A DNA stretch of 64,000 nt from a virus. Shown in pieces: positions 30,471 to 59,979 of this stretch (the first letter of the stretch is position 1; each line of letters starts with the position of its first letter). Where the stretch lies: the IMG/VR virus record IMGVR_UViG_3300037427_004270; one strand, written 5' to 3'. A program made the position numbers and the translations under genes. The notes under the pieces were generated by a model that was not told the DNA's origin, made no database searches, and saw only the letters and a program-made list of their open reading frames with translations.

Positions 30471-30477
30471 GTCTTAA

Positions 30478-41545: not shown

Positions 41546-41576
41546 ATAAAAAAAGCCCGGCACATTGGCCGGGCTT
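41546..41576 (-). terminator. intrinsic terminator after the giant fibre gene
   Basis: AAGCCCGGC-CAATGT-GCCGGGCTT followed by TTTTT. Confidence 0.85.
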
Positions 41577-41609: not shown

Positions 41610-44600
41610 TTATAAGTCTGATGCAAATGGGGATGGATACCATTCACCATTCTCACAGAAGTACCATTTATTGACATTTCCAAATGTTTGTTGCGTAATC
41701 GCATCTGCACTTGCCCAGCTTGAGCCGGAGACAATATAGATCATCGAACCGTTGTATGCACCTGGAGCTGCTGCCATTGTGTCCAAAACATTAACATCAG
41801 AAGCGTTGTCCTGACGGAAGTGTGTAAGACTCAAAAGACCAGTAACCGTAGTAACATCAGTTCTAGCATTACCAAGAGCTGAGTCACCCTGGACAGTCAA
41901 TGTGCTTATCGTTGAGCCACTTGCATAAATGTGTGATGCTGACAAAGGAGCTGAAGTAAAACTTACATTTCCTGTTGCGCCACCCAAAGATGCACTTGTT
42001 GTGAGGCCGAACTGAAAGCGGTCTGCTGACTCGTCCCAGATAAACAATGCGTCAACTGCTGTGCCTCTCTTCATGACAAGGCCAGTATCGTTGACGTTGG
42101 TCGCGCCATTGTCTGTATCACCACTACCACTGTTCAGCATAATCAAGTTATCGTAGAACGTTGTATTGGATGATGAGACATAAGTAACAGAGCCCTGTAC
42201 AGTCAAGTTTCCACCAACAGTCAAGCCAGTGTTCAAAGACAAGGAGTCATCTGAAGCATTGTGCGTGATAGTTGTTGGGGAACCAGCACCGAAGCTAAGA
42301 ACTGCGCCGTCACTTAACAATTTAAGGTCGTCACCAATAACAGCGTCTAATGCAACAGACAAACCGCCGTCGGTCTGCAAAGAGCCGTCAGTTGTTGAAG
42401 TTGCGTTAGTTGTATCATCAGTCTTTAATACGCCAGAGAAAGTACCAGTAGTACCTGCAACTGTTGTAAACGTACCTGCCGCTGCAGAAGCTGCACCGAT
42501 AACAGTGCCGTCAATCGCACCAGAGTCAATGTCAACGTTAGTTGAATTGTAGTTGGCATGATCAACGTTTGAGCCCAACGTTCCAAGATTGGAAGTCGTT
42601 GCAGTCAAGGTTGTGACAGTTGCCGCTGCAGCACTTGCTGCACCGATGGTAGTACCGTCGATTGCGCCACCGTTGATGTCAACAGTAGTCAAAGTAGACG
42701 TGCCAGTTGCAGTGATCGCATCAATGTAACCGTGGTCAATATGAGCTTCGGCCCACTGCTTTGCAGATGTACCCAAGTCGCTTGTGCTATCCAAAATAGG
42801 AATCAAGTCACTATCAAACTGACCAGTTACAGTAACGCTGTCTGTGGTAGCGTTACCTAAGTCAACGTCACCAGTTGCAGACAATGTTGTTGCAGTCAAA
42901 GCTTGAACAGCAGTTGTACCAGCGGAGACACTTAGGCCACCTTTGGTCACTGCCAAAGCATTGTTTGCAGTCAACGTGCTCTCAACGTGCATCGTGCCGC
43001 CGACTGACGCATTGCCAGAACCAGAGACAGTGCCCATAACAGTTAAGTTATTACCCAGGCTTGTTGCACCAGCAATTTGCAGTGTGCTAGAACCAGAGAT
43101 GGTTGTAAACTTTGCAGTTGTTGCAGAGTTTGCACCGATAGCAGTACCGTCGATAGCACCACCGTTGATGTCAACAGTAGTCAAAGTAGACGTGCCAGTT
43201 GCAGTGATCGCATCAATGTAACCGTGGTCAATATGAGCTTCGGCCCACTGCTTTGCAGTTGTACCTAAGTCTCTCGCACTGTCAGTTGATGGAATCAAAT
43301 CACTATCAAATTGTCCTGTTGCGGTGATGGTGTCCGTGGTTGCGTTACCTAAGTCAACGTCACCAGTTGCAGACAAGGTTGTTACAGTTGCTGCTGCTGC
43401 AGAGTTTGCACCAATAACAGCTCCATCAATAGCACCGGAGTCAATGTTGACGTTAGTCATTGCTTCATCAGAGAAGTTAACAGCACCAGCCTGCTCGTAA
43501 GCACCGAGCTTAGTAACAGTCAAAGTATTATTAACTTGATCAAAAGTAATACCACTATCGTAGTAAAGGTTTGCAGATGAAGCTGCAGAGGCAGAAACCA
43601 ATGCGAACGTCAATGTATCACCCGCCTCAACGCCGTCAGTTTGAGCAACACTCGCACCTACGCCTGTCAAGTTGGAGCCGTCACCATGAAAGGTTTTGGC
43701 ATGCATTGCGGAAGCAGACAGTGGAGCTGAGTCAAAAGCTAAGTTTCCAGTCTGAGTTCCTAACGAGCCCGACTTTAATGTTGCAATTTGGAAACGGTCT
43801 GCTGACTCGTCCCAGAACATTGCTGCATCAGTTGCCGCGCCGCGCTTCATGATGAGGCCAATATCATTGATGTTGGTCGCACCATTATCTGCATCACTAC
43901 TGCCACTGTTCAAGACAATCAAGCTGTCATTAAGAACAGTGTTGGAAGAAGACACATAAGTTACAGAGCCTTGCACAGTTAAGCTTCCGCCAACAGTCAA
44001 GCCAGTGTTCAAAGACAAGGAGTCATCTGAAGCATTGTGCGTGATAGTTGTTGGGGAACCAGTACCGAAACTAAGAACTGCACCGTCACTTAACAACTTG
44101 AGGTCGTCACCAATAACAGCGTCTAGCGCAACAGACAAACCACCGTCGGTCTGCAAAGAGCCGTCAGTTGTTGAAGTTGCATTAGTTGTGTCGTCAGTCT
44201 TCAAGATACCAGAGAAAGTACCTGTAGTACCTGCAACTGTTGTAAACGTACCTGCTGCTGCACTTGCTGCACCGATGATAGTACCGTCGATAGCGCCAGA
44301 GTCAATGTCAACGTTAGTTGAATTGTAGTTAGCGTGATCAACGTTTGAGCCCAACGTTCCAAGATTGGAAGTCGTTGCAGTCAAGGTTGTGACAGTTGCC
44401 GCTGCTGCAGAAGCTGCACCGATGGTAGTACCGTCGATAGCACCACCGTTGATGTCAACAGTAGTCAACGTGGACGTGCCAGTTGCTGTGATGTCATCAA
44501 TGTAACCATGATCAACATGAGCTTCTGCCCATTGCTTGGCAGATGTACCCAAGTCTCTTGCACTGTCGGTTGATGGGATCAAGTCGCTATCAAACTGACC

Positions 44601-47600
44601 AGTCACAGTAACTGTGTCTGTGGTAGCATTACCCAAGTCAACGTCACCAGTAGCAGACAACGTTGTTGCAGTCAAAGCTTGTACAGCAGTTGTGCCAGCA
44701 GAAACCGTTAAGCCTCCCTTGGTCACTGCCAAAGCGTTGTTTGCAGTCAATGTGCTTTCAACATGCATTGTGCCACCAACTGATGCATTGCCAGAACCAG
44801 AAACAGTTCCCTTGACAGTTAGGTTGTTACCTAAGCTAGTTGCACCAGCGATGCCTAGAGTACCAGAACCAGAAAGGTTGGTACCAGTCAAAGCTGCGAA
44901 TGTACCTGCTGCTGCAGAGTTTGCACCGATGATAGTGCCGTCGATAGCGCCAGAGTCAATGTCAACGTTAGTTGAATTGTAGTTAGCGTGATCAACGTTT
45001 GAGCCCAACGTTCCAAGATTGGAAGTCGTTGCAGTCAAGGTTGTGACAGTAGCTGCAGCAGCACTTGCTGCACCGATGGTAGTACCGTCGATAGCACCGC
45101 CATTAATGTCAACAGTAGTCAACGTGGACGTGCCAGTTGCTGTGATGTCATCAATGTAACCATGATCAACATGAGCTTCAGCAAACTGCAAAGCAGATGT
45201 ACCCAAGTCTCTTGCACTGTCGGTTGATGGAACAATGTCGCTGTCAAAGCGGCCTGTTGCAGTGATCGTATCAGAGGTAGCGTTACCTAAGTCAACGTCA
45301 CCAGTTGCAGACAAAGCTGCGACAGTAGTTGAACCAGCAGAGACAACCAAGTTGCCGAGAGTAACAGTCAAGTTACCTGCTTCAACCTCTACGTTGTCTT
45401 CAACAGTCATGGTTGATCCGAATGCTGCGCCACCTTGTACAGACAAAGTGCCAGAGCCGGACATGTTACCAGCAACATTAAGTGTGCCAGAGCCAGACAT
45501 GTTGCCTTCAACAGACAAGTTATTACCCAAGCTTGTTGCACCTGCAATTTGTAATGTGCTAGAGCCAGAGATGGTTGTAAACTTCGCAGTTGTTGCAGAG
45601 TTCGCACCGATAGCAGTACCGTCGATAGCACCAGAGTCAATGTTAACATTGGTCATAGCTTCGTCGGAAAAGTTAACAGCACCAGCCTGCTCGTAAGCAC
45701 CAAGCTTAGTTGTAGTCAAGGTGTTTGTATTATTGTTGTACAGAAGTTGTCCGTCAGTCAAAATACTTGCACCAGAGCCTGCTGCGGTAGTACTACCAAG
45801 AAGGTAAACAGTCGCATCATTATCACCACCATCAGCGGTAGTAATTGTGTCTGCGGAGATACCTGTCAAGTTAGAACCGTCACCAGTAAAGAACTGTGCA
45901 TGTACATGGGAAGCAGACAGTGGAGCTGAGTCAAAGCTCAAGTTTCCAGTCTGAGTTCCTAACGAGCCCGACTTTAATGTTGCAATTTGGAAACGGTCTG
46001 CTGACTCGTCCCAGAACATTGCTGCATCAGTTGCTGCTCCACGCTTCATGATAAGACCAACATCGTTGATGTTAGTTGCGCCGTTATCTGAATCACTACT
46101 ACCACTGTTCAAGACAATCAAGCTGTCATTGAGTACAGTGTTAGAAGAAGAAACATAAGTCACAGAACCTTGTACGGTTAAGCTTCCACCAACAGTCAAA
46201 CCAGTGTTCAGAGATAATGAATCATCTGAAGCGTTGTGTGTAATAGTTGTTGGAGAACCAGTACCGAAACTAAGAACTGCACCGTCACTTAACAACTTGA
46301 GGTCATTCCCGAGAACTGCATCTTTAACAACAGATAGGCCACCATCGGTCTGCAAAGAACCGTCGGTAGTAGTAGTTGCTTCAGTTGTGTCATCAGTCTT
46401 TAAGACGCCAGAGTAAGTACCTGTCGTACCCGCAACTGTTGTAAACGTACCTGCCGCTGCAGAGGCTGCACCGATAACAGTGCCGTCAATCGCACCAGAG
46501 TCAATGTCAACGTTAGTTGAATTGTAGTTGGCATGATCAACGTTTGAGCCCAACGTTCCAAGATTGGAAGTCGTTGCAGTCAAGGTTGTGACAGTTGCCG
46601 CTGCTGCAGAAGCTGCACCGATAACAGTGCCGTCAATCGCACCAGAGTCAATGTCAACGTTAGTTGAATTGTAGTTGGCATGATCAACGTTTGAACCCAA
46701 CGTTCCAAGGTTGGAAGTCGTTGCAGTCAATGTTGTGACAGTTGCCGCTGCAGCACTTGCTGCACCGATGGTAGTACCATCAATCGCGCCGCCATTAATG
46801 TCAACAGTGGTCAACGTGGACGTGCCAGTTGCAGTGATTGCATCAATGTAACCATGATCAACGTGAGCTTCGGCCCACTGCTTTGCAGATGTACCCAAGT
46901 CGCTTGTGCTATCTAAAATAGGAATCAAGTCACTATCAAACTGACCAGTTACAGTAACGCTGTCTGTGGTAGCATTACCTAAGTCAACATCGCCCGTAGC
47001 AGACAAAGCTGCGACAGTAGTTGAACCAGCAGAGACAACCAAGTTGCCGAGAGTAACTGTTAAGTTACCTGCTTCAACTTCTACATTATCTTCAACAGTC
47101 AGGGTTGAACCCAAAGCTGCAGCACCTTGTACAGACAAAGTACCAGAACCAGACATGTTGCCAGCAATATTCATGTTGCCAGAACCAGAGATAGCCCCTT
47201 CGACTGACAAGTTGTTACCCAAGCTTGTTGCACCTGCAATTTGCAATGTGCTAGAGCCAGAGATGGTTGTAAACTTTGCAGTTGTTGCAGAGTTTGCACC
47301 GATGGCAGTACCATCAATCGCGCCGCCATTGATGTCAACAGTAGTCAACGTGGATGTACCAGTTGCAGTGATTGCATCAATATAGCCATGATCAATGTGA
47401 GCTTCGGCCCACTGCTTTGCAGTTGTACCCAAGTCTCTTGCACTGTCAGTTGACGGAATCAAGTCACTATCGAACTGGCCAGTTACAGTAACTGTATCAG
47501 AAGTAGCATTACCCAAGTCAACGTCACCAGTTGCAGACAAAGCTGCGACAGTGGTTGAGCCAGCAGAGACGACCAAGTTACCGAGAGTAACAGTCAAGTT

Positions 47601-50507: not shown

Positions 50508-50559
50508 ATTTTTTCCCTCCTTCTTCGTCGAATATCACGAAGAAATAAATTAAAAGTTT
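50508..50559 (-). promoter_or_regulatory. RBS-abutting hairpin, copy 2 (putative translational operator)
   Basis: AAACTTTTAATTTAT-TTCTTCGT-GATATTCG-ACGAAGAA-GGAGGG-AAAAAAT-ATG. Confidence 0.65.
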
Positions 50560-50577
50560 ACTAATGTTTCCCATCTA

Positions 50578-51015
50578 TTAACTTAGATGAAAGAACATGT
50601 CAGGTACCCACGCACTATTGCGCGAAAAATACCATTTGTGGCCTTGCGAGAAAGCCTGAGCTGCGTCATTGCTGACTGCGACAGAACCTCCATTGGCAAT
50701 TGCACCTTTCGTAAGGCCAGTTGAATTTAGATATATAACGTGTCCATTGTAATCTTCTGGCGCTGCAGCCAGAGTATTTAAAATACCAATATCATTTTCA
50801 GAACCTGAAGCATATACTGGAATTCTAAAGACGCCATGAACCTTCGTCACATCGTTAACGTTGTTTGTCTTTCTACCTAACATCGTACTACCAGAGATGG
50901 CCAATGCTTTATTGGACCCTCCCGCAGAAATGATAGCCGAACCATCGTCCAAAAACCTATGGACATTGGTCGGTGATGAACCGGTAGTGACTTGCAACCC
51001 TCTTCTTCCTACCAT
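50578..51015 (-). CDS. 145-aa minimal member of the fibre family
   Basis: Paralog of the N-terminal part of the 370-aa protein (identical GLTKGAIANGGSVAVSNDAAQ); ends with the shared KWYFSRNSAW domain. Confidence 0.85.
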   Translation of the reverse strand: MVGRRGLQVTTGSSPTNVHRFLDDGSAIISAGGSNKALAISGSTMLGRKTNNVNDVTKVHGVFRIPVYASGSENDIGILNTLAAAPEDYNGHVIYLNSTGLTKGAIANGGSVAVSNDAAQAFSQGHKWYFSRNSAWVPDMFFHLS

Positions 51016-51064
51016 ATTATTTTCCCTCCTTCTTTGTCAAATATCACAAAGAAATTAAAAGTTT
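51016..51064 (-). promoter_or_regulatory. RBS-abutting hairpin, copy 1 (putative translational operator)
   Basis: AAACTTTTAAT-TTCTTTGT-GATATTTG-ACAAAGAA-GGAGGG-AAAATAAT-ATG; compensatory T-A versus C-G pair relative to copy 2. Confidence 0.65.
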
Positions 51065-51307
51065 CTTTTTTTACGAATGAGGCGTATATTAAAGGTGAGT
51101 TTCCGCAACAAGTATATAAAATTGGCAACTCTTACCTCCCGAAAAAGGTTTCTTAATAAAACGCCCTTCTTCACAAGCATCCCTTCTCAAACGTGGGGCT
51201 TGATATTAGTATTTAGTGAGAAAAGTGTGGTTTATTGCCTGTTTGCTTCAAGTTCTCTGAAAAAAGTTCCTGCACGTTTTTTATCAAATATTTTATGCAG
51301 ATCCAAT

Positions 51308-51331
51308 AAAAAACCCGGCGCGGGGCCGGGT
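51308..51331 (-). terminator. intrinsic terminator after the four-paralog cassette
   Basis: ACCCGGC-CCCGC-GCCGGGT followed by TTTTT. Confidence 0.85.
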
Positions 51332-51359
51332 CTTGAAAGTATGTTGTGCGAGCGTGTTA

Positions 51360-52442
51360 TTAGCTTACATCTTTTGTGAAAAACTCAAAGCCATCAATTA
51401 GCGCATCGTGACACAAATAGTCGTCATCATGGGTTATAGCATGAGCCGTATAATAGCCACAGTCTTGAGATTTCAAGGTTGAGTTTGAACTATCCCATTG
51501 TCTATAGTAAGAATCAGTAGTCGCTATTGAAATGGTTGTCTGCTTTGTCCATGTTTCGTTACTGAGAGTTTCTCCAATAGGTGCGGTATAGATCTCAACC
51601 TTATCGGCACTAGCTTGTGGTGTCACATCCATCCGAACATGATACCATGTGTTGAACGAGCCTGAAAATATAGTCTCATGAAGACTGTTGGTACCCGAAC
51701 TAATGCCGTGAGAAATATCATTTGTTTTATGAGCGTGGAATTTCAAGCGAGGAACCCTTGCACCGACTTTGCCAGCTTCACTGGTTCCGCCCTGAGCGCC
51801 GTCGCTGTCGTCTCTCAAGGTTGAGAGCGTCAAGCAATATCCCGTCATTCTTGGGTTGTAATCGCCACCAGAGCCATAGAAAGCATCTACAGCGTCTTCG
51901 GTAGCGTCATTAAAATAAGACGCACTTAGAGAGCCTGTTCCTGAACTTACATAGTCTCCCTGCTGGGCGGTGCCTGGGCCGATGCCCTTGACGAACAGGC
52001 CAATTTCTGAGCCTTGATTTCTCTCGGAGTTGGCGACTATTGAGGAGTTGTCGTTGCCCAGTCTCAAGAAAGCTCGAATACTGTAGGCAATTGTAGTACC
52101 TTCCGCAGGAGTTGCGTCAACTGGAAAGTCGCTTCCTGAGTCTGAGCCCGTTGTTATAAACGCCGCCATAATGCATGCGTTGTGATAGCTATTGTTGGAA
52201 TGAATGCTGGCCTGGCCATACATATATCCAGTGCAATAATCTCCCGCAGAAGCTGGTGCTGTGCCGGACAAGAAGGAGTGTGGGACGATAGAGCCAAAAG
52301 CTGCTTCGCCACCGCTGGTAGCTGCCCATGGGCCACCATTGCCGTAGGCCAAGAGGGACATGAAACGTTCCCCCCCTTCGAACTCGCCGGAATTGCCGCC
52401 GTACATGCCGGCATATCTAAAGTTTGAACGTGAAATTCCCAT
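51360..52442 (-). CDS. lectin/jelly-roll-like protein, paralog A2
   Basis: 360 aa; starts MGISRSNFRY, contains FNTWYHVRMDVTP...KVEIYTAP, ends HDALIDGFEFFTK. Confidence 0.85.
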   Translation of the reverse strand: MGISRSNFRYAGMYGGNSGEFEGGERFMSLLAYGNGGPWAATSGGEAAFGSIVPHSFLSGTAPASAGDYCTGYMYGQASIHSNNSYHNACIMAAFITTGSDSGSDFPVDATPAEGTTIAYSIRAFLRLGNDNSSIVANSERNQGSEIGLFVKGIGPGTAQQGDYVSSGTGSLSASYFNDATEDAVDAFYGSGGDYNPRMTGYCLTLSTLRDDSDGAQGGTSEAGKVGARVPRLKFHAHKTNDISHGISSGTNSLHETIFSGSFNTWYHVRMDVTPQASADKVEIYTAPIGETLSNETWTKQTTISIATTDSYYRQWDSSNSTLKSQDCGYYTAHAITHDDDYLCHDALIDGFEFFTKDVS

Positions 52443-52457
52443 TTTATTTTTCTCCTA

Positions 52458-53558
52458 TTAGCTTGATATATTTTTTGAATACACAGTTAGTGCATCTAAG
52501 TATGCGTCGTGGTTTCTGGACCGGGTGCTAAGGGTTGAGCCATTTTGATCTCTCCACGCCTGCACACAATAACCCAAACCCCTGTGGTTTTGGGCATGCT
52601 GACGAGTGACGTAATGACAAGTTCCAGCAAAACGATATTGAGTTGCTCTTTTTGTCCATGTTTCCGAACCTATCGTGTCGGTTGCGGGTGCTGTGTAAAT
52701 TTCAATTTTGTCTGTTCCTGGTAAGGGCGTAATGTCCATCCTTATGCGATACCACGCATTGAATGCGTATGAGCCTTGGCACTTGTGAACTCTTGGTCGT
52801 TGAAACGTGTTCCCAGCGGCGGCTTCGTTCGCATGAGGGCCAGTACTAATGAAAAGAAGTCTTACCACGCCAACATTCCCCCTGTTGGTATCTTTAACGC
52901 TTGAGCCATCACCATCGGAGTCAATATCGTCGTTGCCCCAAGAGTAATGCTTCATACTAGAAAGCCAGAGAGTGTACCCGTTTATTAAGGTGCCGTAAGT
53001 ATCCGTCTTGGAGTACACTGCATATCCATAATCATCACCATCGGCATCGGTGGTGTATCTAGCTGTGGTGGATGGCGTTCTAGCTCCAAAGAACAGACCC
53101 ACTGCAGTGCCGCTTGACGTATATTGACTCACTGATGCTGTGTAGAGACAGCCCAATCTGACTGTGGCTCTCATAGAGACAGCAGTTGCTTGGCTGCGCT
53201 TTCCTGTTGAGTTTGCAAAGCTTGCTGCTGCGCTCCAAGCTGAACCACTGTTTGGGTCTAGTCTTGGCCCCAAGGATCTAGTTCCCAAGAAACCCATGCC
53301 ATACCAACCTCTATTGTAGTTGTTCACTGAGTAATTGTATTGGCTGAAGATCCACCCTCTTGCATAATCTCCGCAAGTGGTTATTGCGCCAGATAACGTG
53401 GAATGGGGAACTGACATTCCCTCTGCAGCATATCCGCCGTTAGTACCACTTTCGCTGCCATTGCCGCGAGCCATGTTGTGGGCAGCCATTCTCACGTTGC
53501 CGTCGGTGGCGTCGTTGAGGGTCGTATACCCTAGAAAATTAAAATCCTGTTTTGCCAT
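52458..53558 (-). CDS. lectin/jelly-roll-like protein, paralog B2
   Basis: 366 aa; starts MAKQDFNFLG, contains DIDSDGDG and WYRIRMDITP...KIEIYTAP. Confidence 0.85.
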   Translation of the reverse strand: MAKQDFNFLGYTTLNDATDGNVRMAAHNMARGNGSESGTNGGYAAEGMSVPHSTLSGAITTCGDYARGWIFSQYNYSVNNYNRGWYGMGFLGTRSLGPRLDPNSGSAWSAAASFANSTGKRSQATAVSMRATVRLGCLYTASVSQYTSSGTAVGLFFGARTPSTTARYTTDADGDDYGYAVYSKTDTYGTLINGYTLWLSSMKHYSWGNDDIDSDGDGSSVKDTNRGNVGVVRLLFISTGPHANEAAAGNTFQRPRVHKCQGSYAFNAWYRIRMDITPLPGTDKIEIYTAPATDTIGSETWTKRATQYRFAGTCHYVTRQHAQNHRGLGYCVQAWRDQNGSTLSTRSRNHDAYLDALTVYSKNISS

Positions 53559-53579
53559 CTCTTGTTCCTCTCTTTGTTA

Positions 53580-54668
53580 TTAAGTCAAATCTTTCGTAAA
53601 AAACTCAAAACCATCTATTAATGCATCGTGAGCCAAATAATCATCATCGTGAGTTTTACAGTGAGCCGCGAAAAAGCCACAGTCTTGTTGTTTGGAAGTA
53701 GAATCTGTTGAATCCCAGCTTCTGTAATATTCGTCTGTGGCGTATATACGCACTGTCTCTCGCTTTGTCCATGTCTCGCTACCCAGGGCGTTTGCAATAG
53801 GGGCCGTATAAATTTCTACCTTGTCATGCCCCGATATTGGTGTTACGTCCATTCGAACATGATACCAGGTATTAAAAGAACCTGAAAAGATTTCAACATG
53901 CTTGCTGTTAACGCCTGGTAAGACGCTGTGGTTGATATTATTCGTTCGGTGGGCGTGGAACTTCAGGCGTGGAATTCTTGCACCTTTTACGCCAGCTTCA
54001 CTGGTTCCGCCAGTTGTTCCGTCGCTGTCGTCTCTCAAGGTTGACAAGGAGAGATAATACCCAGACATTCTTGGGTTGTAACTGCCGCCAGACGCATAGA
54101 AAGGATCGGTGGCATCTTCGTCAGCGTCGTGATAATAAGACGCACTTAGAGAGCCTGTTGGTGAGGCTGTATAGTCATTCTGTTGGTTTGTTCCTGGGCC
54201 GATGCCCTTGACGAAGATACCGATTTCTGAGCCTTGATTTCTCTCGTGGTTGGCGTTTATTGAGGAGTTGTCGTTGCCCAGTCTCAAGAAAGCTCGAATA
54301 CTGTAGGCAGTTCTGGTCCCTTCATTTGGAACTGTGTCCACTGGAAAGTCGCTTCCTGAGTCTGAGCCCGTTGTTACGAATGCTGCCACGAGGTGTGCCC
54401 TATGGTAGCTATTATTCGAAGGGTGACTGGCTTGTCCGTACATATAACCAAGGCAAAAGTCCCCCGCAGAGGCTGGTGCGGTGCCAGACAAGAAGGAATG
54501 TGGAACGACAGAGCCAAAAGCTGCTTCGCCGCCGCCCTCGTTGTTGTTGGCCCAACCAGCGCCTTGGTGTTGGCTTGCCAGTGCTGCCCATCGCTGAGCT
54601 GCATCGGTCGTGCCCGTACTGCCTATCCATGAGCCTGCGTATCTAAAATTTGAACGTGAAATTGCCAT
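53580..54668 (-). CDS. lectin/jelly-roll-like protein, paralog A1
   Basis: 362 aa; starts MAISRSNFRY; long stretches identical to A2. Confidence 0.85.
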   Translation of the reverse strand: MAISRSNFRYAGSWIGSTGTTDAAQRWAALASQHQGAGWANNNEGGGEAAFGSVVPHSFLSGTAPASAGDFCLGYMYGQASHPSNNSYHRAHLVAAFVTTGSDSGSDFPVDTVPNEGTRTAYSIRAFLRLGNDNSSINANHERNQGSEIGIFVKGIGPGTNQQNDYTASPTGSLSASYYHDADEDATDPFYASGGSYNPRMSGYYLSLSTLRDDSDGTTGGTSEAGVKGARIPRLKFHAHRTNNINHSVLPGVNSKHVEIFSGSFNTWYHVRMDVTPISGHDKVEIYTAPIANALGSETWTKRETVRIYATDEYYRSWDSTDSTSKQQDCGFFAAHCKTHDDDYLAHDALIDGFEFFTKDLT

Positions 54669-54683
54669 GTTACTTTTCTCCTA

Positions 54684-55757
54684 TTATACTATCTTTGAAT
54701 ATACCACCAAGCCATCAATGAAGGCGTCGTGGTTCTTATCTACTGCCGTTGCATTGGTGTCTCGCCAAGCAGAAACACAATATCCTATACCTTTGCGGTC
54801 AGCATTGACCCTGGGTAAATAGTGGCTGGTTCCCGCGAAACGATACTGGGTTGCAACTTTCGTCCAGGTTTCCGAGCCTACCGTATCGGTTGCTGGTGCT
54901 GTATATATTTCAATCTTGTCTGTTCCCGGAAATGGAGTAATATCCATTCTTATTCTATACCATTTGTTGTACTGGTATGTTCCTTGACACTTGTGAAATC
55001 TCGACCTGGCTGCGCCAGCACTGCTGCCGCCGTTGGTAGCATACTGTTGTGAGCCAAACAGGAGTCTCACTGTTTGAGCTCCTCTATTGGAATCTGAAAC
55101 ACTCGTACCGTCACCATCGGAGTCAATATCGCTGTTTCCCCAAGAGTAATGTTTCAGACTAGAGAGCATAAGAGTGTATCCTTGAAATTGGGTGCCATAG
55201 GCTGTAGTCTTATTGATAACCGTTCCAGCATAATCATCGCCATCGGAGTCATCTGTGTATTGAGTTGTCTGGGATGGCATGGTCGCATTGGTAAAGACGC
55301 CAATCGACGTTCCAAATGATGCCGAGTCTGCTGATCCGGTGTTGTCTGCTCCCAATCTGACCGTTGCTCTTATAGAGACAGCGGTGGCCGTTGTGCGTTT
55401 TCCTGATGAGTTTGCAAAGTTTGCTGATGCGCTCCAAGCAGAGCCGCTAGCTGGGTCCAGCCTTGCTCCCAATGATCTAGTTCCCAAGAAACCCATGCCA
55501 TACCAACCTACATTGTAGTTGTTTGTTGAGTATCTGTTGGCGCTGAAAAGCCATGCTCTTGCATAGTCTCCGCAAGTGGTTATTGAAGCACTGAGAGAGC
55601 TATGCAACTGAGACTGTCCTTCTGCTGCGTATCCGCCGTTGGTACTTCCGCCAGCGCCGTTGCCAGCTGCAATATCATATGCTATTTTTCTCACGCCGCC
55701 GTCGGTAGTGTCATTGCTTGTTCTATAACCTAGAAATCTAAAATCCTGTTTTGCCAT
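54684..55757 (-). CDS. lectin/jelly-roll-like protein, paralog B1
   Basis: 357 aa; starts MAKQDFRFLG; long stretches identical to B2. Confidence 0.85.
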   Translation of the reverse strand: MAKQDFRFLGYRTSNDTTDGGVRKIAYDIAAGNGAGGSTNGGYAAEGQSQLHSSLSASITTCGDYARAWLFSANRYSTNNYNVGWYGMGFLGTRSLGARLDPASGSAWSASANFANSSGKRTTATAVSIRATVRLGADNTGSADSASFGTSIGVFTNATMPSQTTQYTDDSDGDDYAGTVINKTTAYGTQFQGYTLMLSSLKHYSWGNSDIDSDGDGTSVSDSNRGAQTVRLLFGSQQYATNGGSSAGAARSRFHKCQGTYQYNKWYRIRMDITPFPGTDKIEIYTAPATDTVGSETWTKVATQYRFAGTSHYLPRVNADRKGIGYCVSAWRDTNATAVDKNHDAFIDGLVVYSKIV

Positions 55758-55782
55758 CTCTTGTTCCTCTCTTTAAAAGATT

Positions 55783-56895
55783 TTAACTGTTATCCCATCC
55801 TGCGGCGGTTTCGCCTATTGATGAACTAAACTCCAAATCTCCGCCTGACCACGTTACCGATGTCGCTGACGGGATATTATAATCTGTGTTTCCTGCTACC
55901 CAGTTTGCCTCAATTCTCTTGTGAGTGTTGTAAGTCCAAGTAGGTTCAGCTATATCAGTGGTGCCCCAGCCATGGCCAGTCTCACCCATTGACGCGCTAA
56001 ATTCTAACTCGCTGCCGCCGAAAGTAGGTGCGCTTGTTGCATGGATGTCCCAGTCGGTATCCCCTGCATTAAAACTGATAGGTCCAATTCTCTTATGAGA
56101 ACCATAAGTCCAAGTAGGTTCAGCGGGGTCTGTTGCACCGTATCCTTGGCCTGATTCGCCCATTGCACTGCTAAACTCCAAATCTCCGCCTGCCCACGTT
56201 ACCGATGTCGTTGACGGGATATTATAATCTGTGTTTCCTGCTACCCAGTTTGCCTCAATTCTCTTGTGAGTATTGTAAGTCCAGGTAGGTTCAGCTACAT
56301 CAGTGGTGCCCCAGCCTTGGCCAGTCTCGCCCATTGATGAACTAAATTCTAGCTCACTGCCACCGAAAGTAGGTGCGCTTGTTGCATGGATGTCCCAGTC
56401 GGTATCTCCTGCATTAAAAAGTGTATATAATTGTCTGGTGAATGTTCTCGGAACTGTTACTAAATTGTCAGTAAACCAGTTGCCATTTCTGCAGTAATAC
56501 ATCGTTGCGCCTTTGGCAAAATATTGAGCTGCATCATTACTAACAGCAACAGAGCCGCCGTTGGCAATTGCCCCTTTGGTCAGGCCCTTTGAGCTATTCA
56601 TGTAAAAAACATATCCATTGTAGTTAGATGGGGTGCCTGCTAAGGTGTTTAAGATTGATATGTCGCCTTCCGAACTGCTCTCGTATAAAGGAATACGAAA
56701 CATGCCACTAACAATGGCTCCTTGGCCAGTTAAGGCGTTCTGGTTAGTGCCGCCGTCAAATTCTACTGAAGCTGAAATTTCAACTACTCTGTTGTCGCCT
56801 CCTGCCGCAAGGACAAGAGAGCCATCATCTTTCATGATGTGAACCGAAGTACCGGAGCCTGTGGTTACTTGTAGTGTTGTTTTCTTATATCCCAT
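55783..56895 (-). CDS. 370-aa fibre-family protein with C-terminal Trp/Glu-rich repeats
   Basis: N-terminal ~150 aa are paralogous to the 145-aa protein, followed by four ~57-aa repeats. Confidence 0.85.
   Translation of the reverse strand: MGYKKTTLQVTTGSGTSVHIMKDDGSLVLAAGGDNRVVEISASVEFDGGTNQNALTGQGAIVSGMFRIPLYESSSEGDISILNTLAGTPSNYNGYVFYMNSSKGLTKGAIANGGSVAVSNDAAQYFAKGATMYYCRNGNWFTDNLVTVPRTFTRQLYTLFNAGDTDWDIHATSAPTFGGSELEFSSSMGETGQGWGTTDVAEPTWTYNTHKRIEANWVAGNTDYNIPSTTSVTWAGGDLEFSSAMGESGQGYGATDPAEPTWTYGSHKRIGPISFNAGDTDWDIHATSAPTFGGSELEFSASMGETGHGWGTTDIAEPTWTYNTHKRIEANWVAGNTDYNIPSATSVTWSGGDLEFSSSIGETAAGWDNS
55786..56418. repeat. 345-bp higher-order coding repeat (a-b-a-b units)
   Basis: FNAGDTDWDIHATSAPTFGG starts at 56418 and 56073; alternates with WVAGNTDYNIPS units. 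Confidence 0.9.
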
Positions 56896-56950
56896 GCTTC
56901 CATTCCTCCAGGGCGCGTTTGAACGAGAACCTACCTCGCATAGTTACAAG

Positions 56951-56959
56951 TTAAATAGT
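56951..56959 (-). promoter_or_regulatory. putative late promoter motif ACTATTTAA
   Basis: Intergenic, upstream of the 370-aa gene. Confidence 0.5.
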
Positions 56960-56988
56960 AGGAAACAAGGTACAATTCCTTATTTTTT

Positions 56989-59979
56989 TTAGCCGCAATG
57001 ATAAGTGCAGCCCACAAAGGCTGCGCGGTAGGTCGATCCGTCATGAGAGATCTCAACACATTCGTAACTGCTGGAATTTAAGTCAAAGTCACAATCTTGT
57101 GTTATCTTTGCAACAGTGTAGTTGTGAAGCAAGTCATCATCTTGTTTCATGCCGTATCCCGGAATTTCACAAGTGGTGATATAATCTCCATTCTCTAGGT
57201 TGCCATTGATGTTGCTAATCCAAACACCGCCCTCGCCGAGTGAGTTGATATAAAGTCTATTATCAGAAGAATCGCTCTTCTCCATGATAGTGGTATAGAT
57301 GCCATGCTTGTAAGTTCTTGTAGCTTCATTCTCGTCTTCTGAGTCTGACACAACACCGAAAACAGATTTCTGGTTTCTAGCCGTTGCAAGCTTTACTTTT
57401 GGAATTGCCTCATTGATAGATATGTTTGAGTTGGCAGGTGTTAGGTTCGAGTACGTCCCGTCACTAATAACAATCTTGCCAACGCTTGAGGAGAGAGATG
57501 TGTAAGAAGTTGAGTCAGATGGTGTGCACCTGTGTTGGCCTGTAAAGGTAATGTTGTTTACATCAGCACCATCATCTAGATATCCTTTCGAGGAACCATT
57601 GAAAGAGAAGTTCAAATTCTCCGCTGTAGAATGCCAAAGCGTCCAAGTGTCGTCATTTCCAGACTGAATTATTGATAATCCACCAAGGTTTGCGGCATCA
57701 GCACCCTGCTTGACCTGTAGCATTCCCTCATCGGTTTGATAGTCGATGCCCACATATACCCTTCCGGAGTCCACAATTCCCATTCTTAGGGTGCCTGCGA
57801 CGTTGTAGTCCGTGTTGTCTGGCTTAGTGTAGAAGTACATATTTGCACCCTTGTCACTGGAGCCCATTGTTTCTCCTGCCGTTGCAACGATATATGCAGC
57901 AGGATCACCACCGTCGATGCCGCCATCGGTGGTGTCCCATCCTATTCTACCAAGCTCGTCTCCGAGGGTAGTCGTAGCATCACTACGAACTAAAGTCAGT
58001 CGTCCACCAGAGGAATTATCTATTTGTAAATCTACTTGTGGACTGTCTGTTCCTATGCCTATTTTGCCGTCATTCTTGATCCTCATCCGCTCGGTATTAT
58101 TCGTGCCGAAGTAAAGATCGTAGTTAGCCGATACATTCAGATAAGTGTTGCCGTCGGTATTTATAGAATTGCCGTCAATGTGCATATTGGTGCTACTGTC
58201 TGTTATTTTTACTCCGGCGTTGGCCAAAGTAAGGCTTCCAATGTCACCAACTGTAGCGTTCTTTGTGACATGCAACTGCGTTCCTACTGCGACACCACTA
58301 TCGTTGATGTGCAAAGAATCTGCTGCAGCATCTCTGTCTATCCTGAAAATGTTCGTATCTGAAGTACTATTATTTCTCATTCCGACATTCAGCATGCCGT
58401 TACCAAATCCAGATGCAGCATCGCCGTCATAATCCATGAACGCGCCGTAATTCATTACCTGGCTATCATCAGTATCTTCTGCAAATTCAAGTCTTGCTGA
58501 AAAGTTAGAAGCTGCTGCTGCATCTGCGCCTAGACGAAGTGAGACTGTTCCGCCGTCTGCGTCTCCCTCGATTGATAAGTTTGCAGCCGGAGTGGTTGTG
58601 CCTATGCCAACCCTGTTATTCGAGGAGTCCACATGAAGGGTGTCTGTATCAACTGTGAGTCCTGTGGAAACAATAGTGCCATCTACATCTAGTTCATGAG
58701 CCGGGGAACCTACTCCGTTAATTCCCACCCTGCCCGTAGAGGCGTCACATATGAATAGCGGGTTGCCTTGGTTGGAGCCGTTACCCTTGACAACAAAGTC
58801 AACATTGTTACCACCATCATTGATAGTAACTTCATGAGGAGCAGATCCTTTCTCCTCCATCGTGACCATTGCTTTGCCGCCGGCTTTGAGGATTATCTTG
58901 TCATCGGCGAAGTTGATGAGTGTGTTAGTATCTCCATTGTGGTAGATGTACTGATCGAGCACAAGATCGCCGGCGATGGTGGCAGTTCCAGATTCAAGCT
59001 TCAACACTTCATCGTTTGCATTTCCGCAATGAACTCTTACTTCCTCATCCATGAGTCGTATTTTTGTGGTGGTGCTGCTATCTGTTTTTCGCCTAATTAC
59101 GTCTACATATGCATCATCAAACTCTAAGCCGTTTCCCTTCCCATAGTATGCTGATGCTGAAACTGGCGCAGTAGAATAGAGCGCATATGGAGCTGGAGTG
59201 AATTCGATGGCATCGATTGCTAGATCGCTTCTATAACCGCCAGTGGTGTACCCATTGATGCGGATGTGCAGAGCAGAGCCCAAATACGAAGTTAGGTCCA
59301 CTTCTCCCCTCTTCCAGGCATCACCCTGATTGGCTTGCTGTTCTCCAGAAATTGAAGATACTGCAGAAGGTGAACCATCTGCATCTTTAGTTATTGTCAT
59401 TCCCGTCCAAGAAGAGCCGTCTGTACTCGCAGAGATATGAAGGCTGCCCATATCGTCACCATGCATGTGATAATAAAAAGACATTTTACCAATTTCAGAA
59501 GCTTCTGCTGCTGTAAAGCTTCTCTGCATGACATAAAATACGTTTGACCCATCATTATTCGCGGTTTGGGCGGCGGAAGCCTCGGCAAAAACGTAGTTGC
59601 TACCGGAGTGTGGTCCGGTGGGTCCGGTGGTGCCAGATGGTGTACCGCCGTCGCTGGTCTGCCACTCGTAGCCGTTTGCTATAGTTTGCCCAGTCTTTGA
59701 GCCTGCACCGTTAGTCCAAGTGCCATTCGATGATGGGTTTCCTGGTGATACCAGATCTGCTGTCAGGCCATCAAAGCTTTCTCGGTAAAGTGTTGTGCTG
59801 GTGTTATATGCAGTTGGTGGCATTCCCTTAATGCGACCAATAATTTCCTGAGAGCCTGTCATGGCGATTACATCAGTGCCATCATTGCCGATTTTAATAC
59901 TGCCAGAAGCATACATGACGAAGCCGTAATTACCGCTGCCGTCCTTGTAGCCTAGAGCCCTATTTCTGTTTCCCGACAT
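56989..59979 (-). CDS. 996-aa fibre protein with N-terminal MAM-like domain and C-terminal FTGQH...GCTYHCG domain
   Basis: MAM-like GPHSGSNYVFAEAS...SFYYHMHGDDMGSL...QGDAWKRGEVDL...DLAIDAIEF; RVGIGT / ERMRI..DGKIGIGT fibre repeats; terminal chaperone-like domain. Confidence 0.8.
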   Translation of the reverse strand: MSGNRNRALGYKDGSGNYGFVMYASGSIKIGNDGTDVIAMTGSQEIIGRIKGMPPTAYNTSTTLYRESFDGLTADLVSPGNPSSNGTWTNGAGSKTGQTIANGYEWQTSDGGTPSGTTGPTGPHSGSNYVFAEASAAQTANNDGSNVFYVMQRSFTAAEASEIGKMSFYYHMHGDDMGSLHISASTDGSSWTGMTITKDADGSPSAVSSISGEQQANQGDAWKRGEVDLTSYLGSALHIRINGYTTGGYRSDLAIDAIEFTPAPYALYSTAPVSASAYYGKGNGLEFDDAYVDVIRRKTDSSTTTKIRLMDEEVRVHCGNANDEVLKLESGTATIAGDLVLDQYIYHNGDTNTLINFADDKIILKAGGKAMVTMEEKGSAPHEVTINDGGNNVDFVVKGNGSNQGNPLFICDASTGRVGINGVGSPAHELDVDGTIVSTGLTVDTDTLHVDSSNNRVGIGTTTPAANLSIEGDADGGTVSLRLGADAAAASNFSARLEFAEDTDDSQVMNYGAFMDYDGDAASGFGNGMLNVGMRNNSTSDTNIFRIDRDAAADSLHINDSGVAVGTQLHVTKNATVGDIGSLTLANAGVKITDSSTNMHIDGNSINTDGNTYLNVSANYDLYFGTNNTERMRIKNDGKIGIGTDSPQVDLQIDNSSGGRLTLVRSDATTTLGDELGRIGWDTTDGGIDGGDPAAYIVATAGETMGSSDKGANMYFYTKPDNTDYNVAGTLRMGIVDSGRVYVGIDYQTDEGMLQVKQGADAANLGGLSIIQSGNDDTWTLWHSTAENLNFSFNGSSKGYLDDGADVNNITFTGQHRCTPSDSTSYTSLSSSVGKIVISDGTYSNLTPANSNISINEAIPKVKLATARNQKSVFGVVSDSEDENEATRTYKHGIYTTIMEKSDSSDNRLYINSLGEGGVWISNINGNLENGDYITTCEIPGYGMKQDDDLLHNYTVAKITQDCDFDLNSSSYECVEISHDGSTYRAAFVGCTYHCG

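What the first reader, a model, noticed from the sequence alone, without database searches (positions are those of the whole stretch)
41610..59979. Candidate new system: co-regulated, length-variable fibre family plus lectin cassette inserted in the head module
Seen: about 18 kb of accessory genes lie between the prohead protease/bS21 genes and the scaffold/MCP genes. The 2965-, 370- and 145-aa proteins have related N-termini (PRGIAVISGS..KFRSLDNGA; TTLQVTTGS..HIMKDDGS; RRGLQVTTGS..HRFLDDGS) and share a second ~70-aa domain. The 145-aa protein looks like the bare N-cap plus C-cap. The giant protein looks like the same frame with ~2,750 aa of repeats inserted. The 370-aa protein looks like the frame with repeats appended. 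The 370- and 145-aa genes bracket a B-A-B-A lectin-like cassette, and the 145- and 2965-aa genes share an RBS hairpin. Inference: a modular kit of head or neck fibres of very different lengths, with interchangeable sugar-binding tips and coordinated translation. It could serve for host capture or for adhesion to particles or mucus.
Basis: partly seen in the sequence, partly recalled or inferred. Interest (0 to 1): 0.85.

Follow-up and report, generated by a model that had tools for sequence, protein, structure and literature searches.

The report
Cap-framed phage fibres plus lectin-fold cassette
An uncultured marine T4-like phage carries, inside its head-gene block, a conserved but highly variable set of fibre genes that share the same two end-pieces, plus lectin-shaped proteins that always travel with a small repeat 'linker'; this is probably a surface adhesion kit, but where it sits on the virus particle has not been shown.

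Summary
About 18 kb (41610-59979, minus strand) separates the gp21-like protease and bS21 from the scaffold and gp23-like capsid genes, which are adjacent in the nearest cultured relative.

- **Shared ends.** The 145- and 370-aa proteins are 56% identical over the whole 145 aa. The 145-aa protein matches the C-terminus of the 2965-aa protein (35%, E 3e-15). The giant's N-terminal match is weak and is seen only with a profile that includes intermediate sequences.
- **Cassette.** The four ~360-aa proteins are paralogs with a predicted ConA-like lectin/glucanase fold (Z about 12-13).
- **Operon.** The 145-aa and giant genes form a two-gene unit between terminators. Their duplicated leader hairpins abut the ribosome-binding site.
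- **Conservation.** The layout recurs in several metagenomic relatives, with giants of 1740-2965 aa and different cassettes.

New here: the 370-aa protein's tail resembles free-standing 64-112-aa proteins that sit next to ConA-like genes at 11 other loci. In a sister clade this pair lies between the capsid and neck genes. The cap domain also ends neck-position proteins.

Best reading: a modular virion fibre/adhesin kit. No Pfam, PDB-sequence or cultured-phage relatives were found for the caps or cassette proteins.

The parts
59979..60395 (-). g138: conserved 138-aa protein of unknown function that always directly precedes the fibre cluster
   Evidence: Homologs sit at the same position in L002, L012 and G001/L026. 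No Pfam or PHROG hit. No match in cultured phages. The language-model search returns many viral-only clusters.
56989..59979 (-). g996: fibre protein with a MAM (ConA-like) domain at residues 100-262, tail-fibre-type repeats at ~440-655, and a conserved C-terminal domain ending GCTYHCG
   Evidence: Pfam MAM E 9.5e-10. phrog_9942 tail fibre E 3.8e-8. Homologs precede g370-type genes in L002, G001 and L028. The C-terminus is 35% identical to the Colwellia phage 9A tail protein.
55783..56895 (-). g370: adaptor-like protein. N-cap is residues 1-34 (56794-56895), C-cap is about residues 59-147 (56455-56721), and the repeat tail is residues 148-370 (55786-56454; four ~57-aa repeats in a-b-a-b order, ending in GW-x-x)
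   Evidence: The tail of the g370-type protein P0026 is 54% identical (E 1e-17) to a free-standing small protein. The window's own tail matches the L018 small protein only at E about 0.01.
54684..55757 (-). B1: ConA-like-fold cassette protein (357 aa)
   Evidence: Paralog of A. 66% identical to B2.
53580..54668 (-). A1: ConA-like-fold cassette protein (362 aa)
   Evidence: AlphaFold2 model with pLDDT 76 and pTM 0.86. Z 12-13 to legume lectins, the TM4 gp23 receptor-binding domain, CBM66 and PL7 lyases. No Pfam, PHROG or PDB-sequence hit.
52458..53558 (-). B2: ConA-like-fold cassette protein (366 aa)
51360..52442 (-). A2: ConA-like-fold cassette protein (360 aa)
   Evidence: 71% identical to A1.
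51312..51327 (-). Intrinsic-terminator-like hairpin plus T-run, ending the g138-to-A2 transcription unit
   Evidence: An equivalent terminator is present in L002 and L014.
51016..51359 (-). Conserved 340-bp intergenic region upstream of g145 (probable promoter or regulatory region)
   Evidence: 74% mean column identity across the window, L002 and L014. No Rfam family.
51030..51053 (-). 8-bp stem / 8-nt loop hairpin abutting the SD of g145
50578..51015 (-). g145: the bare frame, consisting of N-cap, a ~30-aa linker and C-cap
   Evidence: In the AlphaFold2 model only residues ~65-141 are confident. 77% identical in L002, 75% in L014 and 51% in G001.
50521..50544 (-). Paralogous 8-bp hairpin abutting the SD of the giant gene, with one compensatory pair change relative to the g145 leader
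41610..50507 (-). g2965: giant fibre with a weak N-cap (residues 5-34), about 2,800 aa of mosaic T/S/M/E/N/K repeat modules, and a C-cap (~2880-2965)
   Evidence: The repeats match only marine cyanophage and roseophage tail-fibre proteins, and weakly.
41553..41576 (-). Strong intrinsic terminator (9-bp stem, 7 GC pairs, T-run) ending the g145-giant operon
29037..30470 (-). g477 (outside the finding): carries two C-cap-like copies at its C-terminus and follows the 2280-aa neck-position giant

Best explanation
This is a conserved, fast-evolving virion fibre/adhesin locus of a clade of uncultured marine T4-like phages. It lies between the prohead protease and the scaffold/capsid genes.

Three proteins share one frame:
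- a ~30-aa N-terminal module, inferred to be the peptide that docks them to one common site on the particle;
- a ~80-aa C-terminal alpha/beta domain, inferred to be a folding or oligomerisation cap analogous to a fibre 'foldon'.

Between the two modules the shaft is absent (145 aa) or about 2,800 aa of beta-rich repeats (2965 aa). By comparison with T4 long tail fibres the latter would be a fibre on the order of 100-150 nm.

In the 370-aa protein the shaft-less frame is fused to a repeat tail. In other phages that tail exists as a separate small protein, always encoded beside ConA-like proteins. I infer that the tail recruits the four ConA-like (probably glycan-binding) A/B proteins, making a short lectin-bearing stub beside the long fibre. 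The 996-aa MAM fibre is a fourth constant member.

The likely role is reversible adhesion of the particle, most likely through its head-neck region, to host-surface or environmental glycans.

Shown: the homologies, the fold, the synteny, the operon structure and the leader hairpins. Inferred: docking, oligomerisation, sugar binding and virion location.
For: - Cap homologies are significant. Single-chain N-cap-shaft-C-cap proteins of 359 and 586 aa exist.
- The giant is built of fibre-type repeats that match only phage tail-fibre proteins. g996 hits a tail-fibre PHROG.
- A1 folds as a ConA-like sandwich, Z 12-13, comparable to lectins and a phage receptor-binding domain.
- The order g138, g996-like, g370-like, ConA-like cassette, g145-like, giant, scaffold, MCP recurs in L002/L003, L014 and G001. 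Partial copies occur in L027 and L028. Giants measure 1740, 2346 and 2965 aa. Cassettes hold 2 or 4 A/B genes, or LamG_3-rich proteins of 1703, 673 and 678 aa.
- A small repeat protein sits adjacent to a ConA-like gene in 7 loci found by searching with A/B (L005/L018, L013, L015, L019-L022). The same holds in 4 of 4 loci found by searching with the small protein (L030-L033).
- The P0026 tail is 54% identical to a free-standing small protein, E 1e-17.
- In the sister clade the pair lies between Gp23 and a gp13-like neck gene.
- The C-cap ends the 264-266-aa protein at the gp14 position in L010 and L011.
- g145 and the giant gene are bracketed by terminators and share a covarying SD-abutting hairpin.
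Against: - No proteomic, imaging or structural evidence places any of these proteins on a virion, let alone on the head.
- Gene position in a head block is only circumstantial. g996 and the giant's repeats resemble proteins annotated as tail fibres.
- In the AlphaFold2 model the N-cap region of g145 is low-confidence (pLDDT 46-55).
- The C-cap has no significant structural match. The best is Z 3.0, to a collagen XVIII trimerisation domain.
- The window's own g370 tail matches free-standing small proteins only at motif level (E about 0.01).
- Repeat number does not track A/B gene number in L002.
- ConA-like folds also include lyases and glucanases.
- The g2965 N-cap match is marginal.
Confidence: 0.5

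Rival explanations
1. They are ordinary tail or baseplate fibres (primary receptor-binding proteins) that happen to be encoded in a plastic site of the head block. On this view the N-cap docks to a baseplate or tail protein, and A/B are distal adhesins of a branched tail-fibre system.
For: - g996 hits the tail-fibre family phrog_9942, and its C-terminus resembles the Colwellia phage 9A tail protein.
- The giant's repeats match cyanophage and roseophage proteins annotated as tail fibres.
- The A1 model matches the TM4 tail receptor-binding domain (Z 12.7), with Z equal to that for lectins.
- No canonical long-tail-fibre genes were recognised among the tail genes of the window.
Against: - The locus keeps its place between the protease and the scaffold in every relative seen.
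- In the sister clade the small-protein/ConA-like pair lies between Gp23 and the gp13-like gene.
- The C-cap is fused to the neck-position protein in L010 and L011.
- The rest of the ~185-kb genome, where baseplate and fibre genes may lie, could not be inspected.
Confidence: 0.25
2. A/B are not lectin tips. They are enzymes (polysaccharide lyase or glucanase type depolymerases) or dedicated assembly factors for the fibres, and the small repeat protein or tail is their substrate or co-factor.
For: - The A1 model matches PL7 alginate lyases and other lyases about as well as it matches lectins (Z about 12).
- The likely hosts, marine Bacteroidota, are rich in such polysaccharides; the host assignment is inferred only from the nearest phages.
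- The tight pairing with a small acidic repeat protein could equally reflect a chaperone-client relationship.
Against: - No His or Gln is invariant or nearly invariant among 24-25 family members, whereas the PL7 catalytic set needs both.
- There is no Pfam hit to any lyase or glycoside-hydrolase family.
- Duplicated, diverging paralogs (29-71% identity) suit binding specificities better than a housekeeping chaperone.
Confidence: 0.12
3. The shared caps are only recombination footprints, and the 145-aa gene is a non-functional deletion remnant of a fibre gene. On this view there is no 'system', just a junkyard of fibre fragments in a hyperplastic region.
For: - The region is plainly plastic: cassette content, giant length and the g996 C- and N-terminal parts all vary between relatives.
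- g145 equals the two ends of its neighbour.
Against: - g145 is intact, with its own strong SD and hairpin. It is conserved at 75-77% identity in L002 and L014 and 51% in G001, at the same position directly upstream of the giant.
- Free 134-136-aa versions exist in further phages.
- Gene order is conserved across MCP divergence of ~64%.
Confidence: 0.05
4. The proteins are prohead-internal or ejected proteins targeted to the capsid interior by the N-cap, in the manner of T4 capsid-targeting sequences.
For: The genes sit between the prohead protease and the scaffold, where T4 encodes core proteins. A short shared N-terminal peptide is reminiscent of a targeting signal.
Against: - The Thr/Ser/Gly/Ala-rich repeat composition and the tail-fibre repeat homology are those of external fibres.
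- g145, g2965, A1 and B1 contain no [LI]xE protease motif, against 13 in the scaffold-like protein.
- A lectin-fold cassette makes little sense inside a capsid.
Confidence: 0.03

Closest known systems
T4 fibritin (wac) collar/whisker fibre
   Same: The architecture is the same: a short N-terminal virion-attachment part, a shaft of freely variable length, and a small C-terminal domain needed for chain registration. Engineered 'mini-fibritins' lacking the shaft are the counterpart of the natural 145-aa protein. Fibritin is encoded next to the neck genes of a T4-type phage.
   Different: There is no sequence or detectable fold relationship. The shaft here is beta-rich repeats rather than a coiled coil. 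The C-cap is ~80 aa of alpha/beta structure, not a 27-aa beta-hairpin foldon. Three length classes share one frame. Neck attachment is not shown.
Capsid display proteins such as T4 Hoc and phi29 head fibre gp8.5, and the head-fibre-like appendages of Tenacibaculum jumbo phage PTm1 (Kawato 2020, cited in PMC13282480)
   Same: These are non-essential surface appendages encoded in or near the head module and proposed to mediate adhesion. PTm1 is a large myovirus of a marine flavobacterium, so there is precedent for head fibres on a phage of the kind of host inferred here for this clade.
   Different: No homology was found. No cultured phage in the 50,697-record collection has a cap or A/B homolog. 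Hoc uses Ig-like domains rather than ConA-like domains. A capsid location is unproven here.
Branched tailspike/fibre systems with shared N-terminal anchor modules (CBA120 TSPs, G7C gp63.1/gp66, phiKp24)
   Same: Several receptor-binding proteins of one phage share a conserved N-terminal docking module and differ in the distal part. Adaptor proteins carry further binders.
   Different: Those anchors are folded domains of roughly 100-300 aa at the baseplate, and the distal parts are enzymes. Here the anchor is ~30 aa, the family also shares a C-terminal cap, and the locus lies in the head block. (This comparison is from my own knowledge and was not tested here.)
ConA-like / LamG / legume-lectin superfamily carbohydrate-binding modules in phage receptor-binding proteins (e.g. 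TM4 gp23 C-terminal domain, PDB 9n6a)
   Same: The predicted fold of A1 matches these with Z 12-13 over ~200 residues. The motif W-Y-H-V-R-M-D followed by an I-Y-T-A-P strand resembles the LamG_3 signature (my reading of the sequence).
   Different: No Pfam lectin, LamG or MAM model is matched. A/B are free-standing ~360-aa proteins with ~130 extra residues. They are always paired with a small acidic repeat protein or tail.

Membership tests
Phage fibre proteins (generic trimeric beta-structured fibres) | Repetitive Thr/Ser/Gly/Ala-rich shaft with homology to known fibre repeats | tested here: met
   T+A+G+S make up 53% of g2965, and the modules recur in four super-repeats. tblastn hits only annotated tail-fibre or structural proteins of marine phages. 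g996 hits phrog_9942.
Phage fibre proteins (generic trimeric beta-structured fibres) | Presence in the virion and trimeric state | not testable with these tools
   There are no proteomics data.
T4 fibritin (wac) | Sequence or profile homology to fibritin, a coiled-coil shaft, and a C-terminal foldon | tested here: not met
   No Pfam or PHROG fibritin hit for g145, g370 or g2965. The shaft composition is beta-type rather than heptad. The C-cap model is an ~80-aa alpha/beta domain with no foldon match.
ConA-like lectin/glucanase superfamily (fold level) | Curved two-sheet jelly-roll sandwich matching solved members | tested here: met
   A1 model has pTM 0.86. Z 12.9 to Lotus lectin 2eig (207 aligned, rmsd 3.8), Z 12.7 to 9n6a, Z 12.5 to CBM66. 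Atlas neighbours are LamG-like.
Pfam Laminin_G_3 / Lectin_legB / MAM (sequence families) for A/B | Match to the family HMM above the gathering threshold | tested here: not met
   No Pfam family at E <= 0.01 for any of the four A/B proteins. By contrast g996 does meet MAM (39 bits against a cutoff of 26.4), and the L009 1703-aa cassette protein meets Laminin_G_3.
PL7 alginate lyases | Conserved catalytic Arg, Gln, His and Tyr (the RxELR, QIH and YFKAG motifs, from established knowledge of PL7) | tested here: not met
   Invariant or nearly invariant columns across 24-25 A/B homologs include Arg, Tyr, Trp, Asp and Glu but no His or Gln. Structural similarity alone is Z about 12.
Carbohydrate-binding function of A/B | Demonstrated glycan binding or a conserved sugar/Ca2+ site | not testable with these tools
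   Only fold-level similarity is available. The acidic DxDxDG-like loops noted in B were not analysed further.
T4-type head-neck module context | Flanking genes are gp20, gp21, gp22, gp23 and gp13 homologs in T4 order | tested here: met
   Portal_T4 and Peptidase_S77 are present in L002. phrog_207 and phrog_138 are present in the window. Gp23 and Phage_T4_gp13 lie on homologous genes of L015, L030 and L031, which are 65-86% and 68-69% identical to the window proteins.

The most novel reading that the evidence does not exclude
The locus encodes a previously undescribed two-tier display system.

First tier: a universal 'plug' (N-cap) and 'cap' (C-cap) frame. It lets one docking site on the head-neck region accept fibres from 0 to ~2,800 aa. 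The co-translated 145-aa stub competes with the giant for that site and so sets how many long fibres a particle carries.

Second tier: a separate, widely mobile two-gene module, consisting of a small acidic Trp-ending repeat protein plus ConA-like lectins. It is a self-contained glycan-binding decoration that different phage lineages attach to capsids. In the window's lineage it is attached by fusion to the plug-and-cap frame.
Probability: 0.25. Interest if true: 0.75.

Novelty: new variant of a known kind. Interest (0 to 1): 0.58.

Why it matters
Marine T4-like phages of uncultured hosts are abundant, yet their accessory surface structures are almost unknown.

This locus defines three families without any Pfam, PHROG (caps and A/B), PDB-sequence or cultured-phage relative:
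- the C-cap domain, with 16 cluster representatives among 1.8 billion;
- the A/B ConA-like proteins, 22 among 5.8 billion;
- the small repeat partner, 21 clusters.

It also shows that these families obey a fixed grammar across phage lineages. If the model is right, it gives three things:
- a natural example of length-programmable fibres built on one frame, which is useful for phage display and fibre engineering;
- a testable docking pair (repeat tail and lectin-fold protein);
- a candidate molecular basis for head or neck fibres such as those seen by electron microscopy on large marine flavobacterial phages.

If the proteins prove to be ordinary tail fibres, the value drops to an annotation of a hypervariable receptor-binding locus.

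Tried and rejected
- **Whole genome.** None is held, so I could not look for a separate baseplate and tail-fibre module.
- **Fold of the C-cap.** Foldseek against the PDB gave nothing at E <= 0.001. VIA-align against 48,161 chains gave a best Z of 3.0 (collagen XVIII trimerisation domain) and 2.8 (Mtd N-terminus), which is too weak to assign a fold. The Atlas structure library was not available.
- **Sequence families for the C-cap.** A profile of 14 C-caps against PDB sequences gave a best E of 0.12, and Pfam gave nothing credible.
- **PDB sequence searches.** Those with g2965 and A1 were empty. For g996 only the MAM domain and a short repeat matched.
- **Cultured phages.** There were no hits for g145, A1 or g138, and megablast of the whole 18 kb found nothing.
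- **IMG/VR scan with the A/B alignment.** It found no locus; the metagenome scan did.
- **Neck assignment.** Pfam on the g2280 N-terminal domain, g449 and g477 gave nothing. The gp13/gp14-position assignment therefore rests on precomputed hits on close homologs and on synteny.
- **Late promoter.** CTAAATA in the conserved intergenic block occurs only once in the window, so it is not a general late-promoter motif.
- **Rfam.** It has no family for the leader or intergenic region.
- **BFVD.** The search with the A1 model gave only generic ConA-like domains in uncharacterised or tail proteins.
- **Stoichiometry.** I considered and dropped a strict one-repeat-per-lectin rule. L002 has ~3.6 repeats but two A/B genes.
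Full report
**What the window is.** All relevant genes lie on the minus strand. In transcription order:
- the end of a portal gene, then three small genes;
- a gp21-type prohead protease at 61259-61891 (phrog_207, E 2.8e-55);
- a 139-aa gene, then bS21 at 60401-60610;
- the block under study;
- a 348-aa acidic protein at 40413-41459. It is 23.6% Glu+Asp and has 13 [LI]xE motifs, which is scaffold-like;
- a gp23-type major capsid protein at 38707-40395 (phrog_138, E 5e-71);
- a 449-aa protein whose close homologs (68-69% identity) carry Pfam Phage_T4_gp13;
- a 2280-aa protein and a 477-aa protein;
- a 273-aa protein with a weak, sub-threshold T4-gp15 hit, then sheath, tube, hub and tape measure.

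By MCP similarity the nearest cultured phages are Flavobacterium phage immuto (46%) and Rhodothermus phage RM378, plus two metagenomic 'huge phage' records. In immuto the order protease, two small ORFs, scaffold-position gene, MCP is contiguous. The ~18 kb between bS21 and the scaffold is therefore an insertion relative to that relative. The source contig is 184,686 bp.

**Checking the observation: the caps.**
- g145 (50578-51015) and g370 (55783-56895) are 56% identical over the entire 145-aa protein, E 4e-44.
- g145 residues 26-141 align with the last ~105 residues of g2965 (41610-50507) at 35% identity, E 3e-15.
- g370 also matches the g2965 C-terminus, E 2e-7.

The C-terminal 'cap' is therefore real. 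A 14-sequence alignment gives the signature D..L..LA..P..YNG.MIYL...F...KWYFCENG.W.PSPF.

The N-terminal similarity is strong between g145 and g370. For the giant it is not significant by BLAST (E about 6). I tested it with profiles:
- An HMM of twelve short-type N-termini finds the N-termini of other long cap-bearing fibres at E 1e-6 to 1e-13 in a 444-sequence database. These are P0037 (586 aa), P0039 (359 aa), the 2346-aa giant of L009 and the 451-aa protein of L010.
- The window giant and its L002/L003 orthologs are the next hits (E 0.01-0.04), well above the noise, which starts at E > 1.
- After adding the intermediates, g2965 residues 5-34 score E 7e-5.

P0037 and P0039 are single chains that read N-cap, shaft, C-cap.

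**The giant, g370 and the cassette.**
- The giant is a mosaic of recurring modules in four super-repeats. It is 53% Thr/Ala/Gly/Ser.
- g370 is the shaft-less frame (1-147) followed by four ~57-aa repeats in a-b-a-b order.
- The four ~360-aa proteins are paralogs. A vs B is 29% identical, E 1e-28. A1/A2 are 71% identical and B1/B2 66%.

**Transcription and leaders.**
- An intrinsic terminator follows A2 (51312-51327). A strong one follows the giant (41553-41576).
- g145 plus the giant therefore form a discrete bicistronic unit behind a 340-bp intergenic region. That region is unusually conserved: 74% mean column identity across three phages.
- Both genes have a ~50-nt paralogous leader. An 8-bp stem with an 8-nt loop ends directly at GAAGGAGGG.
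- The 29-nt pattern occurs only at these two sites, with 0 expected by chance. The stems differ by one compensatory C:G to T:A pair.
- In relatives, hairpins of unrelated sequence occupy the same place in 7 of 11 cap-gene leaders.
- The structure is thus recurrent but not universal. Whether it controls translation or protects the mRNA 5' end is open.

**What the proteins are.**
- None of g145, g370, A or B has a Pfam or PHROG family.
- g996 has a MAM domain (E 9.5e-10), tail-fibre-type repeats (phrog_9942), and a C-terminal domain 35% identical to a Colwellia phage 9A tail protein.
- The giant's repeats match, weakly, only tail-fibre or structural proteins of cyanophages and roseophages.
- AlphaFold2 on g145 with 12 homologs gives a confident alpha/beta domain for residues ~65-141 only (pLDDT 85-95). 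The N-terminal third is below 55.
- That C-cap domain has no significant structural neighbour. Foldseek finds none, and the best VIA-align Z is 3.0, to the collagen XVIII trimerisation domain. It also has no PDB or Pfam relative by profile.
- AlphaFold2 on A1 with 24 homologs (pLDDT 76, pTM 0.86) gives a ConA-like lectin/glucanase sandwich. Z is 12-13 to legume lectins, the TM4 gp23 receptor-binding domain, CBM66, ERGIC-53 and PL7 alginate lyases. Atlas and BFVD agree at the fold level only.
- The family keeps invariant Arg, Tyr, Trp, Asp and Glu but no His or Gln. This argues against a PL7-type lyase mechanism.

**Rarity.**
- An exhaustive phmmer search of g145 against 1.84 billion representatives returns 16 proteins.
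- A1 against 5.8 billion clusters returns 22.
- No cultured phage has either family.

**Relatives and synteny.** The same order, g138, g996-like, g370-like, ConA-like cassette, terminator/gap, g145-like, giant, recurs in several places:
- A 102.9-kb Tara contig (L002/L003/L004/L017) with one B-A pair and a 1740-aa giant.
- L014.
- A 119-kb IMG/VR record (G001 = L026 + L009). There the cassette is a 1703-aa protein with four Laminin_G_3 domains plus 673- and 678-aa proteins. The N- and C-terminal motifs of those two resemble A/B. They are followed by a 136-aa cap protein, a 2346-aa giant, the scaffold and the MCP.

Fragments L027 and L028/L029 show g996-like, g370-type and ConA-like genes in the same order. 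In G001, cap hits are confined to this locus.

**New finding 1: the tail of g370-type proteins is a separate protein elsewhere.**
- Next to A/B-like genes in other phage lineages there is always a 64-112-aa ORF. Its N-terminus reads like MTPPNYFRFV. It carries acidic DESF...GW repeats and has a Trp near its C-terminus.
- Loci found by searching with A/B: L005/L006/L018 (112 aa then 329 aa), L013, L019, L020, L021, L022 and L015.
- Searching the other way, from the small protein, gave 21 clusters. In all four longer contigs the next gene is a ~344-aa A/B homolog.
- The tail of the g370-type protein P0026 is 54% identical (E 1e-17) to such a free-standing protein, and an A-like gene follows P0026.
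- The window's own g370 tail shares only motif-level similarity, E about 0.01.
- I infer that the tail (or small protein) and the ConA-like proteins act together, most simply by binding. In the window lineage the small protein has been fused to the cap frame.

**New finding 2: links to the head-neck region.**
- In a sister clade (MCP 64-86% identical to the window's), the small-protein/ConA-like pair lies between Gp23 and the gp13-like gene. A C-cap-bearing fibre still precedes the scaffold (L015, L030, L031, L033).
- In L010 and L011 the 264-266-aa protein that follows the gp13-like gene has an N-terminal 160 aa homologous to the start of the window's 2280-aa protein, and it ends in a C-cap.
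- The window's 477-aa protein carries two C-cap copies.
- The N-terminal domain of that protein has a counterpart next to immuto's 'head completion protein'.
- These are positional arguments for a head/neck association. They are not proof.

**Mechanism, with status.**
- Shown: the homologies, the fold of A1, the conserved gene order, the operon boundaries and the duplicated hairpin.
- Inferred: (a) the N-cap is a docking peptide for a common site; (b) the C-cap is a folding or oligomerisation cap at the distal end, as in fibritin or collagen NC1 domains; (c) g370 is an adaptor that recruits A/B through its tail; (d) A/B bind glycans; (e) the assembly sits on the head-neck region and mediates reversible adhesion.
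- The 145-aa protein may be a stub that occupies the same sites as the giant. This is speculative.
- From the T4 long tail fibre (~145 nm for ~2,500 residues in series; established knowledge), the giant could span roughly 100-150 nm.

**Comparison with known systems.** The closest functional analogue is T4 fibritin (anchor, variable shaft, C-terminal foldon), but none of its defining sequence or structural features is present. Head fibres and display proteins (phi29 gp8.5, T4 Hoc) and the head-fibre-like appendages of Tenacibaculum phage PTm1 (Kawato 2020, as cited in PMC13282480) are precedents for the proposed location, without homology. Branched tailspike systems share the idea of a common N-terminal anchor. 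The locus is best called a new variant of a known kind, namely modular phage fibres and adhesins, built from three undescribed families.

**Limits.**
- Complex prediction and the whole genome were unavailable.
- All relatives are metagenomic.
- Earlier notes of this scan on the same window describe the same features from the sequence alone and are not independent evidence.

Noticed in passing
window 29037-37320 (minus strand): The 2280-aa protein begins with a ~160-aa domain. In relatives (L010, L011) that domain is a 264-266-aa gp14-position protein ending in a C-cap. In the window the next gene (477 aa) overlaps the 2280-aa stop by a few bases and ends in two C-cap copies. Together they look like the same 'frame with a giant insert' logic, possibly a split or frameshifted gene.
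   Followed up: partly
window 51016-51359 (minus strand); L002 11078-11419; L014 2993-3323: The intergenic region before g145 is more conserved (74% mean column identity, long invariant blocks) than the flanking proteins. It includes a CTGCA...TGCAG inverted repeat just after the terminator. It has no Rfam family. It could be a promoter or operator, or a small RNA.
   Followed up: partly
window 60401-60610 (minus strand): A phage bS21 gene sits inside the head block and is conserved at the same place in L002 and G001, but is absent in L012. The neighbouring fibre genes use unusually strong GGAGGG ribosome-binding sites.
   Followed up: no
L013 3667-5265 and 11437-11877; L020; L032: A different, unidentified phage lineage carries the small-protein/ConA-like pairs near a GroEL-type chaperonin (Cpn60_TCP1), an SLT lytic transglycosylase and an HSP20 gene.
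   Followed up: no
window 41610-50507, 50578-51015, 53580-55757: g2965 (2965 aa), g145, A1 and B1 contain no [LI]xE motif, the T4 gp21 protease site. The adjacent scaffold-like protein has 13. I did not test this avoidance statistically.
   Followed up: no
P0038 (1314 aa) and P0040 (1046 aa), found: In these two representatives the N-cap lies internally (residues ~540 and ~575) and starts with Met. They look like two adjacent fibre genes called as one, or genuine fusions of an upstream fibre to a cap-framed fibre.
   Followed up: no
window 56989-57650 (g996 C-terminal domain): The C-terminal ~220 aa of g996 (FTGQHRC...GCTYHCG) is the best conserved part of that protein across relatives: 54-68% identity in L028 and G001. 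This is higher than for its fibre part, which suggests a conserved interaction or enzymatic role.
   Followed up: partly
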